This document shows, piece after piece, positions 18,001-21,000 of a stretch of 21,366 nt of DNA (position 1 is the stretch's first letter; every line of letters starts with the position of its first letter). The position numbers were made by a program. Source of the DNA: a virus; UHGV virus genome UHGV-2192570, one strand, 5' to 3'.

Positions 18001-21000
18001 AACAGGCCGGAACCCTCTTCAATCTCGTAGCGGTCATCGTCCGCCAGAATGAAAGTAATGTTGCCAATGCTGAAGCTGTCATAGCCCGCAGTGTTAACCG
18101 GGATCAGCGCACCACGTGCCGCCTCTGCCACCTTGTTAGTGATCAGGCTGGTTACTTCAGGGTGACCCGCTAAAGCGTCATACAGATCCGGGGATGCGAA
18201 ACAGAAGAATCGCTCCAGATAGGCACGGGATGCGCCGTACTCTTTCACCAGTTGGCGGCGAATCTTCGAAAGCTGGGCATACACATTAGCCCCGGCTGAG
18301 GCGTCAAGCTCAAAATCTAGCGGGGCGGTATCAAACACCACGTTGAAATCGACGTCGCCGTCATTGGTCTTTGCCGCTTTCGCTTTCTGTTGGAACAGGG
18401 CGCGGGCTAAAGTCGCTTCCACAGTCTCCAGGTGGTGATCACGCATACGCACGGATTTAGCGGCAATGACGGACGCAACCGCCTGAGCCTGATCCGGGTT
18501 AGCCGGGCTTACCAAGGATTGCCAATCTTCGGTTTTCACATCGGATTCTGTTGCGTAGTGTGGGATCTCCTGATCACGGAGGATGGTTTTATCCATCTTG
18601 ATGCTGTTTACTTCGGTGCCGTAGCGGGAGACCTGCTCAAGCTCTGCAACAGCGCTTTCCACAATATCCACAACCTGAGCGCGTGGGGTAGTGGAGTTAA
18701 CACCAGTGAAGATACCCAGATCAGAGATCAGGTGATTACCAGCGGGAACGGACTTGATAGCCGCTACCGTGTCGAGACGTTCAAAACTTTTGAAATCCAC
18801 AGCCATGTGATTACTCTCCTTGAGATTTACGGAAATCAGAATTAACAGCCAGGCGAATCTCACCCGATGCGGTCAGCGCTTCTAATGCGGCTTTCTTGGA
18901 TGCCTCATCTTTGGCTTTCAGATTGAAATCCGTGATCACTACGTGGCGATCCACAATGACCAGCGTTTTGGGCTTGCCGTCGGCGTCCATGTTGGACAGG
19001 TTAATGATCGGCTTGCCAGCGTCAGCGGCGGATGAGTCATACAGGGCAAAAGTTTTGCTGTCCAGGATGTCGCCACAATCGACGTGATCGGGGAGACCAT
19101 CCGGGGCGGTTACTTCGGTGCGGTCAAAAAGTGAGCTAGCATAGCTCACGATGATGTCGCCCTGGGTCACAGGGTAACGAGGAGTAGCATTCATTGAATT
19201 TTCCTTGAGGAGTGGAGAAGCGCACAGGGGCGCAGTGATACCCGGCGTTGCACCGGAGAATCCGGGAGTTGGGGAGACTCCAGATCGGATATTAGAGATA
19301 CAGGAGAGAGGCAGCGAATAGGATCAGAGGTCCATCATGGACCCCATCACCAGCCCCGATCCCACACCTCTGTGGAGGGAAAGGGTAAACCCTTTTTGTG
19401 TGGATACTTGCCGCCCCTGGCGGCGTCACGCCAATAGCGCCAACCTTTTGGCAAATACCCACAAAAAAAAGAACCCGGGAAGGTTACCGGGTGGACTTAA
19501 TAAGAGGAGATTTATCGCTTGAGTTTTCCTGTGGCGACTCATCGACAAGACACCAGAGGAAAACGGCGTGAACTGAAACACGCCGGAAACCGTAAACGGT
19601 TAATCATCCACACGGTTACCACGCCGTTGGATTGTGCCCTTTCGGGGAGGCTTTTGAGATAAGGAGATCTCGCGTGATATCTTGAGAGGAACATCACACT
19701 GTGAACCCTGGCAAGTGGAGTTGTTCAAGGCTCACAGGGTGAGGAACCAGAGCGGAGGAGAAGCCGCCCGGCTCACTCGTACAGATCTTGATTGCTCGGC
19801 TAAGCACACGTTGCGACTCTGTACACAGCGTGACGCGATGAGTTGCAAAACGGCGGGTTTCCAGATCCCGAGTAGACATGCTCACTACATCACGCTATGT
19901 CTATATTTTACAATAATTTATGCAAAATTGCAACAAAATGATCAGGTATATGTTGACTTCTACGTCGTGATGTGTATCAGATGAATTTGTGGGGGGTGAT
20001 TACGGTGGGTTTGTGGGTGGTCTGACTCAGGGGGGGCTATGTGTCTTTTGGGACACACTAGACAATAATAGATATATAAGACCTCGCTCCGCTCGCCCGT
20101 CCGGGCTACGGTCTTATTAATCTTATAATTTAATCGTTCAATAATTAATCGCTCAGGCTCTTAATTATTTCTCTCTTAAATTCTAGCCTCTTAAAACCTT
20201 TCGCTACGCTCACCCGTCCGGGTCCAGGTTTTAGGCCGGGGCCTGTTTCCCACATGTGGAGTCGAGCCTGTTGGCTCATCTCCCGGTGTAAAGAAATCAG
20301 ACGCCACGACAAACCGGGGAATCTTCAGAGGTGTAAAGAAATCAGACAGCAGGTGACATCTGGTGTAAAGAATCCCGACACCGTGGTGTAAAGAAATCAG
20401 ACACAATAAGACTATAGATAAACCTACCCACACCAGATAAAACTAGAACCCTCAGGACCAGGGCAAGACCTTAAAGAGATTGTGAGTATTAATTGATTGT
20501 TAATTAAGCAAGACTCTTTAGGTAAGGAACATCCGTTCCTGATCTTGGGACAGGCTACGCCCAACGGGTTAGCCTCCTTTGGGCAATGCAGAACCAGAAC
20601 CGCAACACGGTTTCTGTTTCTGCCTTTGGGAAACCGTGACACCTGGCAGCGGGGTGGGGTGCCCGGCGCGGAGTGATACCCACGGACGCCACAGGGCAAT
20701 ACCTAACGCGCTGTATGGCGTTATCTCCTCTCAGGTGACCCTACCACCACAGGGTGGCCCTCAGAACCGCTTACAGCTCGTTATACGCATGATTTGATAA
20801 ATCAACCCAGCCGCAAATAATCCATTGTCAATCTATTGAAATCATGATAAAATAATCAACGTGATGCGGGGTTGTAATTGAGTACAATTTCCCCAATTTA
20901 ATGATAAATGTTCTGCCCGGAGATTGCAAGCCCTATGAGTAAAATCGATTACAGCGACGTTGACACCCTTATCTGGCGTGTCGATCAGCGTCTGACTTCC

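What the first reader, a model, noticed from the sequence alone, without database searches (positions are those of the whole stretch)
20049..20402. Direct-repeat arrays resembling a packaging, att or binding region
GCTCRCCCGTCCGGG occurs twice (20091-20105, 20208-20222) flanking a 100-bp AT-rich segment with CTCTTAA repeats. It is followed by four 18-bp direct repeats GGTGTAAAGAAATCAGAC with 45, 32 and 23-bp spacing. This resembles cosB/pac-type terminase-binding arrays or integrase arm sites, and lies just upstream of a gene of unknown function.
Basis: partly seen in the sequence, partly recalled or inferred. Interest (0 to 1): 0.45.

Follow-up and report, generated by a model that had tools for sequence, protein, structure and literature searches.

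The report
Replication origin of a phage satellite
The repeats are most likely the DNA-replication start site of a small, apparently undescribed mobile element that parasitises large virulent phages: four binding sites for the element's own initiator protein, next to an easily melted stretch framed by a sequence copied from (or shared with) the helper phage.

Summary
The interpretation (terminase cosB/pac array or integrase arm sites) is not supported.

The window holds two islands in tandem at tRNA-Gly. The finding lies in the second, inside a 1.7-kb stretch with no conserved ORF, between a capsid/decoration operon and a rightward operon.

In 17 related islands the four-repeat block keeps its position, copy number and spacing, but its sequence falls into 9 classes. 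Each class matches one class of recognition helix in a 185-219-aa winged-helix protein encoded about 1.7 kb downstream. No other protein tracks the repeats, including the integrase and the adjacent ORF. That protein's fold and profile matches are to replication initiators; its best solved-structure match is the iteron-binding domain of RepA from the Vibrio cholerae satellite PLE.

The GC-rich repeat and the sequence to its left are 83-89% identical to two intergenic sites in ~145-kb virulent Certrevirus phages (ΦTE, CR3). The island also copies the N-termini of two proteins of those phages.

Best reading: a composite satellite origin made of private iterons, an AT-rich unwinding region and a helper-shared element. 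This is a PLE-like modular replicon in Enterobacteriaceae. Binding and replication are inferred, not shown.

The parts
15410..15432 (+). Degenerate tRNA-Gly 3'-end repeat: junction between island 1 (P4-like, 1-15409) and island 2, which holds the finding
   Evidence: Window 15410-21332 is 99.8% identical to E. coli LR-29-1 starting inside tRNA-Gly
19905..19933 (-). Predicted sigma-70-type promoter for the leftward decoration/capsid operon (P_left). It lies 350 bp from the iterons.
   Evidence: TTGCAA-17-TAAAAT, in a block conserved across the family. Consensus match only.
20030..20077 (+). Left part of the helper-shared block (..CTATGTGTC..GGGACACAC..AATAATAGAT..)
   Evidence: Aligns with Certrevirus phage intergenic sites and with other satellites
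20078..20115 (+). Box 1: inverted arms AAGACC/GGTCTT around the conserved core TCGCTCCGCTCGCCCGTCCGGGCTAC.
   Evidence: Core nearly invariant in 4 phage copies and 15 satellites. Arms co-vary as AAACC/GGTTT, AAGACC/GGTCTT and ACACC/GGTGT. Folding energy alone is not significant, z -1.7.
20116..20192 (.). AT-rich segment, candidate unwinding element. Has TATAAT at 20124-20129 and CTCTTAA at 20158, 20173 and 20188.
   Evidence: About 72% A+T; 20107-20206 is the least stable 100 bp in the 1.7-kb gap. The first ~35 bp are shared with the phages. Absent from one relative, L016.
20193..20232 (+). Box 2: paralogue of box 1 inside arms AAAACC/GGTTTT.
   Evidence: 33-nt direct repeat of box 1 at 79%. 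In other satellites the inner part is replaced by a different small GC palindrome (GCCC-TTCG-GGC or GGCC-TGAT-CGGCC) while the arms are invariant. Two inner pairs show compensatory change.
20233..20278 (+). Small GC palindrome AGGCCGGGGCCT (20233-20244), invariant palindrome CCACATGTGG (20250-20259) and invariant GCCTGTTGGCTCA
   Evidence: 91% mean identity over 13 loci in 20245-20274. Function unassigned.
20285..20303 (+). Iteron 1 (GGTGTAAAGAAATCAGACG)
   Evidence: class A of 9 classes
20330..20348 (+). Iteron 2
20362..20380 (+). Iteron 3 (degenerate: GGTGTAAAGAATCCCGACA)
   Evidence: The same variant is present at the same position in L015.
20385..20403 (+). Iteron 4
20404..20490 (+). Conserved right flank of the array (CAATAAGACTATAGATAAACCTACCCACACC...CCAGGGCAAGACCTTAAAGAGATTG)
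   Evidence: 70-85% identity over 13 loci, directly abutting the hypervariable block
20825..20853 (+). Predicted sigma-70-type promoter of the rightward operon (P_right). In intact relatives this operon includes the initiator gene. It lies 420 bp from the iterons.
   Evidence: TTGTCA-17-TAAAAT with TG. Consensus match only.
20936..21332 (+). First gene of the rightward operon (147 aa in intact copies), truncated here. It is not the repeat-binding protein.
   Evidence: RefSeq start in LR-29-1. 96% identical between islands with different iterons.
21333..21366 (+). End of an IS3-family insertion sequence that interrupts island 2. The initiator gene, expected about 1.3 kb further on, is therefore not in the window.
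   Evidence: Matches ISEc52/IS911-type ends in about 2000 E. coli records, and homology to intact islands stops at 21332

Best explanation
The region is the replication-origin module of a ~13.5-kb integrative phage satellite inserted at tRNA-Gly. Its likely helpers are virulent Certrevirus myophages (ΦTE/CR3 group).

Shown by comparison: the four 19-bp direct repeats are the recognition sites of the satellite's own 185-219-aa winged-helix protein. That protein is encoded about 1.7 kb downstream in intact copies and is cut off from this window by an IS.

Inferred from fold and profile similarity: the protein is a replication initiator of the RepA_N / DnaD-NTD / lambda-O type, and the repeats are iterons. 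Most iteron classes are imperfect palindromes with A/T-rich centres. The last three copies sit 2 and 3 helical turns apart, which suits dimers binding on one face of the DNA.

Inferred: binding melts the neighbouring 72% A+T segment (20116-20192). That segment is framed by two copies of a conserved box in short inverted arms. The first box, with about 50 bp to its left and a TATAAT to its right, is shared at 83-89% identity with two intergenic sites of the helper phages. I propose this is where helper functions enter, either replisome loading or a helper-dependent primer or activating transcript, as in T4-type promoter-plus-unwinding-element origins. The initiator's disordered C-terminal half ends in a conserved acidic tip (..DWDLDPAF) that may recruit further proteins.

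The iteron cassette and the recognition helix are exchanged together between otherwise similar elements, as in the Vibrio cholerae PLE replicon.
For: 1. Hypervariable cassette in conserved DNA. Across 13 loci the 1.7-kb gap is 55-92% identical to the window but drops to about 35% exactly at 20275-20394. Copy number (3-5) and spacing (38-46, 32-33, 22-23 bp) are kept.

2. One-to-one covariation in 17 loci and 9 classes.
- Same-class pairs are at least 85% identical in the helix segment; different-class pairs are at most 78%.
- Every other protein has different-class pairs at 89-100% identity and same-class pairs at 33-64%. This covers the capsid, decoration protein, 147-aa, 86-aa, RHH and 190-aa proteins, and the N- and C-terminal parts of the same winged-helix protein.
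- Class B iterons occur with a B helix even in a protein only 43% identical overall (L014).
- The most similar helices have the most similar iterons (Spearman 0.35, permutation p about 0.04).

3. Structure prediction. Residues 10-102 form a winged helix with pLDDT above 90. The recognition helix (63-75) is exactly the variable segment. Residues 106-202 are disordered.

4. Initiator affinity.
- The top Foldseek PDB hits are 4PQL, 4PT7 and 5KBJ, a Rep-iteron complex.
- The BFVD top hits are named replication initiator and lambda GpO N-terminal.
- 51 of 60 family members match phrog_391 'replication initiation O-like' (best E 4.7e-8). The eight PHROG families matched by most members are all initiators or helicase loaders, and none is a terminase.

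5. Position. The array overlaps neither predicted promoter (350 and 420 bp away). It adjoins the least stable 100 bp of the gap. No other replication protein was found among the island-2 proteins scanned.

6. Helper link.
- Window 20052-20149 matches 25 Certrevirus records at 83-89% and nothing else in 50,697 phage records.
- The satellite's TMP-like and 'phiTE_211' proteins copy the N-termini of phiTE_228 and phiTE_211.

7. Precedent. PLE RepA binds semi-palindromic iterons in a large non-coding region. [quoted passage not shown]
Against: - No experiment: binding, melting and replication are all inferred.
- The protein does not match Pfam RepA_N (PF06970) or Phage_rep_O; its Pfam hits are the generic HTH_36, HTH_Crp_2 and MarR_2.
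- No DnaA box or IHF consensus lies in the gap.
- The AT-rich segment is separated from the iterons by about 90 bp of GC-rich conserved DNA.
- One relative (L016) keeps the iterons but lacks the AT-rich segment and both boxes.
- One relative (Kosakonia, L003) keeps the protein but has no iterons anywhere within 20 kb. These may be decayed copies.
- Single-strand folding of the boxes is not better than shuffles.
- The role of the shared block in the phage itself is unknown.
- Arrays of some classes carry one unit of another class at their left edge, which is unexplained.
Confidence: 0.7

Rival explanations
1. Transcriptional control region. The winged-helix protein is a regulator (repressor or activator) and the four repeats are its operators between the two divergent operons. 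The helper-shared block is a helper-responsive promoter that switches the satellite on during infection.
For: - The array lies between divergently oriented operons.
- Palindromic sites suit dimeric regulators.
- Specificity classes resemble phage immunity groups.
- The shared block carries a perfect TATAAT (20124-20129) and in the phage sits upstream of rightward genes.
- Initiators often autoregulate as well, so the two roles can coexist.
Against: - The repeats overlap neither predicted promoter; they are 350 and 420 bp away.
- The eight PHROG families matched by most members are all replication initiators or helicase loaders, with 51 of 60 members matching the leading one.
- The best structural match is a satellite initiator's iteron-binding domain.
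- The protein has no folded oligomerisation or ligand domain, only a disordered tail with a conserved tip.
- The phage has only 2 copies of the shared block, too few for a promoter class.
Confidence: 0.18
2. Packaging signal. The helper-shared block, with or without the repeats, is the site where packaging of satellite DNA starts, and the winged-helix protein acts as a satellite small-terminase-like specificity factor.
For: - Satellites commonly carry their helper's packaging site (P4/P2 cos, PICI cos; established knowledge).
- The only DNA shared with the candidate helpers is this block.
- Small terminases have an N-terminal winged helix plus a C-terminal partner-binding part, an architecture the protein superficially resembles.
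Against: - ΦTE and CB7 are reported to be circularly permuted, T4-like headful packagers with no defined ends (PMC7344957).
- The block occurs twice per phage genome, in opposite orientations in ΦTE, and is not near the terminase genes.
- No family member matches any terminase family.
- The repeats vary between satellites that share the helper-like block, so a helper terminase cannot read them.
Confidence: 0.07
3. Integrase arm-type sites or another recombination site (attP arms).
For: Direct repeats with irregular spacing near an AT-rich segment resemble arm sites.
Against: - The att core is the tRNA-Gly 3' end. The array lies 4.8 kb from attL and, by the intact LR-29-1 island, about 9 kb from attR.
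- Nearly identical integrases (90-98%) go with six repeat classes.
- One repeat class goes with three unrelated integrases.
Confidence: 0.01
4. Partition (centromere-like) site bound by the winged-helix or RHH protein.
For: Iterated repeats bound by small DNA-binding proteins are typical of centromere-like sites. TubR-type winged helices appear low in the fold list. An RHH gene lies in the same operon.
Against: - No ParA, ParM or TubZ-type NTPase is encoded among the island proteins scanned.
- The RHH protein is 98-100% identical across different repeat classes.
- The element is integrated, not a plasmid.
Confidence: 0.02

Closest known systems
[quoted passage not shown]
   Same: - A satellite of a virulent myophage.
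- The origin lies in a large non-coding region with several repeat types.
- Semi-palindromic direct-repeat iterons with A/T-rich centres.
- An initiator with an N-terminal winged-helix DNA-binding domain that co-varies with the iterons, joined to a C-terminal part that does not.
- Modules swapped repeatedly between elements.
- The initiator has no helicase or primase domain.
   Different: - No detectable sequence similarity and no Pfam RepA_N match.
- The protein here is about 200 aa with a disordered C-terminal half.
- At least 9 specificity classes against 2 in PLE.
- Four 19-bp iterons against three ~30-bp iterons.
- The origin here embeds a block shared with the helper genome.
- Tyrosine integrases, different hosts and different helpers.
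- Function is untested here.
Bacteriophage lambda ori and O protein; lambdoid ori/O specificity types (established knowledge)
   Same: - Four ~19-bp iterons with internal dyad symmetry, bound by dimers of an N-terminal winged-helix domain.
- An adjacent AT-rich region.
- Specificity differs between related phages and resides in the N-terminal domain, while the C-terminal part recruits the helicase loader.
- 51 of 60 family members hit the 'replication initiation O-like' PHROG.
   Different: - Lambda's ori lies inside the O gene. Here the array is 2.3 kb upstream of the initiator gene's start, with three independently shuffled genes in between.
- There is no P-like partner gene.
- The AT-rich region is about 90 bp from the iterons rather than abutting them.
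- There is no Pfam Phage_rep_O match at the curated threshold.
SaPI/PICI replicons (Rep with island-specific iterons flanking an AT-rich region; established knowledge)
   Same: A satellite-encoded initiator with island-specific iterons next to an AT-rich segment, and specificity that diversifies among related islands.
   Different: SaPI and PICI initiators are primase-helicase fusions with the ori directly downstream of rep. Here the initiator is a bare winged helix and must borrow the helicase and primase.
Staphylococcal multiresistance plasmid RepA (pSK41/pTZ2162; PDB 4PT7, 4PTA, 5KBJ)
   Same: The top Foldseek PDB matches cover the whole domain, 94 columns. These proteins bind semi-palindromic direct-repeat iterons.
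   Different: These are plasmid proteins of Firmicutes with a folded C-terminal domain and iterons inside the rep gene. Identity is only 12-20%.
   Same: Several ~16-19-bp repeats bound by a winged-helix protein in a non-coding region of a phage-related element.
   Different: - No cosN-like site, no IHF consensus and no terminase genes.
- All repeats are in direct orientation.
- The repeats track a satellite initiator-like protein.
- The candidate helpers package by headful (PMC7344957).
T4-type origins ori(uvsY)/ori(34): a phage-specific promoter followed by an unwinding element, primed by an R-loop (established knowledge)
   Same: The helper-shared block ends in a TATAAT. In both phage copy 1 and the satellite it is followed by very AT-rich DNA.
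   Different: This is purely an analogy. No transcript, activator or R-loop is known for the Certrevirus block.

Membership tests
Iteron-type origin with RepA_N/DnaD-NTD-like initiator (PLE-like replicon) | Three or more direct repeats (iterons), usually semi-palindromic with an A/T-rich centre | tested here: met
   Four copies here and 3-5 in relatives. Classes B, C, D, H and I are clear imperfect palindromes; class A (this window) is the least symmetric.
Iteron-type origin with RepA_N/DnaD-NTD-like initiator (PLE-like replicon) | A cognate initiator encoded by the same element, whose DNA-binding domain co-varies with the iterons | tested here: met
   One-to-one match of 9 iteron classes with 9 recognition-helix classes in 17 loci. 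No other protein tracks them.
Iteron-type origin with RepA_N/DnaD-NTD-like initiator (PLE-like replicon) | The N-terminal domain has the RepA_N/DnaD-NTD fold | tested here: inconclusive
Iteron-type origin with RepA_N/DnaD-NTD-like initiator (PLE-like replicon) | Sequence membership of Pfam RepA_N (PF06970) | tested here: not met
   No member of 60 matches it. HTH_36 matches in 54 of 60. No PDB sequence match to 4RO3. PLE RepA itself was also assigned by structure, not by BLASTP (PMC7145576).
Iteron-type origin with RepA_N/DnaD-NTD-like initiator (PLE-like replicon) | An AT-rich unwinding region next to the iterons | tested here: met
   72% A+T; least stable 100 bp of the gap. Present in 15 of the 16 loci examined that carry the array (all but L016). 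It lies about 90 bp from the first iteron.
Iteron-type origin with RepA_N/DnaD-NTD-like initiator (PLE-like replicon) | Repeats and protein are required and sufficient for helper-dependent replication | not testable with these tools
   Needs infection, qPCR and EMSA experiments.
Phage replication initiator, lambda-O-like (PHROG 391/270/428/6643 group) | Profile match of the DNA-binding domain | tested here: met
   51, 43, 34 and 29 of 60 members at E<=1e-3, best 4e-9 to 5e-8. The window-type protein itself is weak (1.9e-5 and 8e-4).
cos/pac site with small-terminase binding repeats (lambda cosB type) | Repeats read by a small terminase, next to a cut site shared with the helper | tested here: not met
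   No terminase gene or terminase profile match. The repeats differ between satellites that share the helper-like block. The helpers are reported permuted/headful (PMC7344957). The DNA ends themselves were not mapped.
Integrase arm-type sites | Located in the att arms and co-varying with the integrase arm-binding domain | tested here: not met
   4.8 kb from attL. Integrases 90-98% identical go with 6 classes, and class B goes with 3 unrelated integrases.
Repressor/operator immunity region | Sites overlap the regulated promoter(s) | tested here: inconclusive
   Consensus promoters lie 350 and 420 bp away, but promoter prediction is weak and no transcript data are available.
Phage satellite of Certrevirus (helper assignment) | Cis sequence and protein segments shared specifically with the helper | tested here: met
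   - About 100 bp at 83-89% identity to 25 Certrevirus records only.
- N-termini of phiTE_228 (59% over 44 aa) and phiTE_211 (79% over 33 aa) are copied.
- Host genera overlap.
- Mobilisation itself is not testable here.

The most novel reading that the evidence does not exclude
Island 2 belongs to an undescribed family of ~13.5-kb Enterobacteriaceae satellites that parasitise virulent Certrevirus (ΦTE/CR3-like, ~145 kb) myophages.

- Host genera seen: Escherichia, Cronobacter, Enterobacter, Citrobacter, Klebsiella aerogenes, Pantoea, Kosakonia and Pluralibacter.
- They carry their own capsid and decoration genes and decoy N-termini of helper tape-measure and head-assembly proteins.
- Their replicon is PLE-like. 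Its origin is a chimera of a private iteron cassette, exchangeable with the initiator's recognition helix in at least 9 specificities, and a cis element taken from the helper genome.
- The diversification may reflect conflict with the helper, by analogy with the origin-directed nuclease Odn of ICP1, or conflict between co-resident satellites.
Probability: 0.45. Interest if true: 0.75.

Novelty: new variant of a known kind. Interest (0 to 1): 0.6.

Why it matters
Satellites of virulent phages are known from very few systems, chiefly PLE/ICP1 in Vibrio and the PICMIs.

- If this reading holds, E. coli and its relatives carry a PLE-like counterpart aimed at rV5-like phages, a group considered for phage therapy and biocontrol.
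- The helix-iteron table gives 9 natural specificity pairs on one scaffold. That is a ready-made data set for the DNA-recognition code of this winged-helix class and for orthogonal origin/initiator parts.
- The helper-shared block points to an unannotated cis element in Certrevirus genomes, possibly an origin.
- For annotation, the 1.7-kb stretch with no annotated gene in these islands is functional DNA, and the winged-helix protein labelled 'MarR family regulator' is more likely a replication initiator.

Tried and rejected
- Megablast of 19900-20900 against plasmids and phages found nothing. Only word-11 blastn of the whole gap found the phage block.
- Rfam found nothing in the gap at gathering score, and only chance-level hits at E up to 5. 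No tRNA genes.
- The idea that the 13-14-kb Logan contigs show a free episome was rejected. The contigs simply break in the tRNA-Gly att repeat, which is at least 32 bp.
- The 147-aa ORF next to the array, the RHH protein, the 86-aa and 190-aa proteins, the capsid and decoration proteins and the integrase were each tested as the repeat reader and rejected by covariation.
- No DnaA-box or IHF consensus in the gap, and GATC sites are not clustered there.
- tblastn of the capsid found no close phage relative; the best is 24% to Pseudomonas phages. tblastn of the winged-helix protein found no phage hit, so no Odn-like mimic among 50,697 phage records at that sensitivity.
- Single-strand folding energy of the boxes is not significant.
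- The genome-contig scan gave only 2 loci. Most relatives came from the protein search plus contig look-ups.
- PADLOC found nothing for the low-GC accessory ORFs.
- Literature searches for a described satellite of this type or of Vequintavirinae found none in the held library. This does not prove that none exists.
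Full report
**1. The observation**

- GGTGTAAAGAAATCAGAC occurs four times on the + strand (20285, 20330, 20362 with 3 mismatches, 20385). It occurs nowhere else in the 21.4-kb window, against 0.00 expected. Spacing is 45, 32 and 23 bp.
- GCTCRCCCGTCCGGG occurs at 20091 and 20208, against 0.04 expected. It is the core of a 33-nt repeat at 79% identity.
- The three CTCTTAA copies are unremarkable by count but sit at exact 15-bp spacing.
- The segment between the GC repeats is about 72% A+T and is the least stable 100 bp of its surroundings.

**2. Context**

The window is not one island but two in tandem at tRNA-Gly.
- Positions 1-15409 are a P4-like element. It carries an integrase, int-alpA RNA, Rha, AntA, an Ash-domain protein, isrK and C4 RNAs, and a DUF927 primase.
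- A degenerate copy of the tRNA-Gly 3' end lies at 15410-15432.
- From there on the window is 99.8% identical to an island that stands alone at tRNA-Gly in E. coli LR-29-1.

The intact island, of the ~13-14-kb family size, has this gene order:
- two low-GC accessory genes;
- on the minus strand, a small ORF, a lambda-gpE-type major capsid gene and a gpD-like decoration gene;
- a 1.7-kb stretch with no conserved ORF;
- on the plus strand, ORFs of 147, 86 and 56 aa (the last an RHH protein), a ~200-aa helix-turn-helix protein and a 700-aa protein with a tape-measure-like N-terminus;
- a few small ORFs and a tyrosine integrase.

The finding lies in the middle of the ORF-free stretch. In the window the island is cut at about 21333 by an IS3-family element. 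The ORF '20908-21366' is therefore a truncated fusion, and the helix-turn-helix gene is not in the window.

**3. The four repeats are a swappable cassette read by the island's winged-helix protein**

- A second E. coli island (EC24) is about 99% identical to the window on both sides of the repeat block. In place of the block it has four copies of GGGCGGAAATATTTTCC at the same positions.
- I collected 17 related loci. In 13 of them aligned over the whole gap, identity to the window is 55-92% but falls to about 35% exactly at 20275-20394.
- Copy number and spacing are kept: 38-46, 32-33 and 22-23 bp.
- The repeat sequences fall into 9 classes. Each class goes with one class of a 16-residue segment of the helix-turn-helix protein.
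- Same-class pairs are at least 85% identical in that segment, and different-class pairs are at most 78%.
- For every other protein tested the relation fails in both directions. The 147-aa protein is 96% identical between class A and class H islands. The RHH protein and the first 48 residues of the helix-turn-helix protein are 100% identical between class E and class H. Capsids are 99% identical between classes E and I but 40% within class A.
- Integrases 90-98% identical accompany six classes, and class B accompanies three unrelated integrases.
- AlphaFold places the variable segment on the recognition helix (63-75) of a confident winged helix (residues 10-102). The rest of the protein is disordered.
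- Helices that resemble each other go with repeats that resemble each other.

This is strong comparative evidence for direct read-out of the repeats by this protein. It rules out the integrase and the adjacent ORF as the binder.

**4. What kind of protein and site**

- RefSeq calls the protein 'MarR family' or 'helix-turn-helix domain-containing'.
- Family-wide, 51 of 60 members match the PHROG 'replication initiation O-like'. The eight PHROG families matched by most members are all replication initiators or DnaD-like loaders, and none is a terminase or a regulator family.
- DnaD-NTD and the staphylococcal RepA_N initiators follow. The latter are the top Foldseek hits, including a Rep-iteron complex.
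- Scores are modest and generic winged helices are close behind, so I treat the fold assignment as supportive, not decisive.
- Pfam RepA_N is not matched.
- Most repeat classes are imperfect palindromes with A/T-rich centres, as described for RepA_N iterons (PMC7145576) and for lambda ori.
- The last three copies are 2 and 3 helical turns apart.
- The array overlaps neither predicted promoter.
- The array adjoins the most easily melted DNA of the region.
- No other replication protein was found among the island proteins scanned.

Taken together, an iteron-type origin is the best reading. In PLE, too, the RepA N-terminal domain and the origin co-vary as an exchangeable module while the C-terminal part is conserved (PMC8263062).

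**5. The GC repeats and AT-rich segment: a block shared with candidate helper phages**

- A word-11 blastn of the whole gap against 50,697 phage records hit only one thing. Window 20052-20149 matches 25 Certrevirus (Vequintavirinae) genomes at 83-89%. These are ΦTE, CB7, CR3, CR8, CR9, PBES 02, P7_Pc, KaOmega, the vB_ExiM phages and others.
- Most of these phages hold two copies.
- ΦTE copy 1 (99,384-99,493) lies in the intergenic region where the replication arm and the late arm of the genome diverge. It is followed by about 170 bp of very AT-rich DNA with GATCTT repeats and then a TTGACA-17-TAGAAT promoter.
- ΦTE copy 2 (34,071-34,169) is in the opposite orientation, between two co-directional early genes.
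- The 25-nt core of the box is almost invariant in phages and satellites.
- The flanking arms co-vary as AAACC/GGTTT, AAGACC/GGTCTT and ACACC/GGTGT.
- Two satellites (L009, L017) carry the copy-2 variant.
- The second box in the window (20193-20232) is a paralogue of the first. In other satellites its interior is replaced by a different small GC palindrome while the arms stay.
- Folding energies are not significant. The arms may be a protein-recognition dyad rather than a hairpin.

Two further links point to the same phages.
- The satellite's tape-measure-like protein copies the N-terminus of phiTE_228.
- Its small 'Phage_phiTE_211' protein copies the N-terminus of phiTE_211, the gene next to the ΦTE decoration and major head genes.

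Host genera overlap. ΦTE and CB7 are reported to be circularly permuted, T4-like headful packagers (PMC7344957). That makes a cos-type function for the block unlikely. The two copies per genome, placed far from the terminase genes, argue against a classical pac site, though not conclusively.

**6. Mechanism proposed (steps marked)**

- Shown by comparison: the winged-helix protein reads the four repeats, and the cassette and helix are exchanged as a pair.
- Inferred from homology and fold: the protein is a replication initiator, and the array with the AT-rich segment is the satellite origin.
- Inferred by analogy: because the initiator has no helicase or primase, the replisome must come from host or helper. 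The helper-shared block framing the AT-rich DNA is the likely entry point. It could be a loading or priming site, or a helper-dependent promoter firing into the unwinding element as in T4 ori(uvsY) and ori(34).
- My own observation, untested: the conserved acidic C-terminal tip (..DWDLDPAF, ..DYDFGDPF) resembles the SSB C-terminal tip and may be a recruitment peptide.

**7. Caveats**

- One relative keeps the iterons but lacks the boxes and the AT segment (L016).
- One keeps the protein but no iterons (Kosakonia).
- Arrays of classes E, F, G and I start with one class-B unit, and class H starts with one class-C unit. These may be relics of cassette replacement or may have a function.
- Invariant blocks at 20248-20278 and 20404-20490 have no assigned role.
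- Nothing here has been tested at the bench.

**8. Comparison and novelty**

- In kind this is a known thing, an iteron origin with a co-evolving initiator.
- Its nearest relative in logic and fold is the PLE replicon, and in layout lambda ori.
- It differs in the bare ~100-residue winged helix with a disordered tail, in having at least 9 specificities, in the 2.3 kb and three independently shuffled genes that separate the array from the initiator gene's start, and in embedding a helper-genome element.
- I found no description of this satellite family, or of any satellite of Vequintavirinae, in the held literature.
- Verdict: observation confirmed; first interpretation partly supported (a protein-binding array in a satellite, but not terminase or integrase sites). 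Best explanation is a composite satellite replication origin, confidence about 0.7. Novelty: a new variant of a known kind. Interest 0.6.

Noticed in passing
window 1-15432: The first 15.4 kb is a separate P4-like island: integrase, int-alpA RNA 1299-1366, Rha, AntA, an Ash-domain protein, isrK 5653-5729, C4 antisense RNA 5754-5841 and a DUF927 primase 6628-8769. It sits in tandem with island 2 and is separated from it by a degenerate tRNA-Gly 3'-end repeat at 15410-15432.
   Followed up: partly
window 21333-21366: An IS3-family (ISEc52/IS911-like) end interrupts island 2. It turns the 147-aa ORF into a 152-aa fusion and removes the initiator gene from the window.
   Followed up: partly
window 20543-20634: A 90-nt block with a long perfect inverted repeat (GCAGAACCAGAACCG / CGGTTTCTGTTTCTGC) flanked by CCTTTGGG repeats. 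It is 88-90% identical even in distant relatives (L019, L020), and a lone copy exists in E. coli SCU-316. It could be a small RNA or a leader element.
   Followed up: no
window 19473-19585 (- strand): Two terminator-like hairpins lie in the ~700-nt leader between the predicted leftward promoter (19933-19905) and the decoration/capsid genes. The capsid operon may be under antitermination-type control.
   Followed up: no
L001 23614-25716; L007 8925-9299; phiTE (L024 7617-10052, L023 5390-6499): The satellite's 700-aa TMP_3-like protein and its small 'Phage_phiTE_211' protein carry N-terminal segments 37-79% identical to the N-termini of ΦTE tape measure (phiTE_228) and phiTE_211. The rest of each protein is unrelated. 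They may act as decoys or adaptors in helper assembly.
   Followed up: partly
P0001 and relatives, C-terminus (alignments A4, A6): The initiator-like protein ends in a conserved acidic tip (RDWDLDPAF, DYDFGDPF, WDEDEPF, DQFGDAF). It resembles the C-terminal tip of E. coli SSB (DFDDDIPF, from my own knowledge) and may be a recruitment peptide.
   Followed up: no
L007 5999, L016 4008, L012 4338, L010 8460, L018 ~8205, L011 4046: Arrays of classes E, I, G and F begin with one class-B unit, and class H begins with one class-C unit, although the cognate helix is of another class.
   Followed up: partly
L016 ~3900-3971; L003 9658-10000: Natural deletion variants. L016 lacks both boxes and the AT-rich segment but keeps the iterons. 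The Kosakonia arachidis island lacks the whole array and three ORFs but keeps a class-A initiator gene.
   Followed up: partly
L014 9536-9841; L017 ~7320-7560: Some islands carry an extra stand-alone 101-aa winged-helix ORF. It matches phage replication-initiator families more strongly (phrog_4617, 1e-8) than the main protein does.
   Followed up: no
window 15958-17401: Two low-GC (35-37%) accessory ORFs of 204 and 262 aa sit at the att-proximal end of island 2. They have no Pfam or PADLOC match. Relatives have different cargo at this position (SieB-like, AAA_15/AAA_21 ATPase, DUF4062), so this looks like a variable defence or accessory slot.
   Followed up: partly
phiTE NC_020201 99,384-99,760 and CR3 JQ691612 138,050-138,374: The Certrevirus intergenic region at the divergence of the two genome arms has the shared box, about 170 bp of AT-rich DNA with GATCTT repeats and a strong sigma-70-like promoter. 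It is unannotated and could be a phage replication origin.
   Followed up: partly
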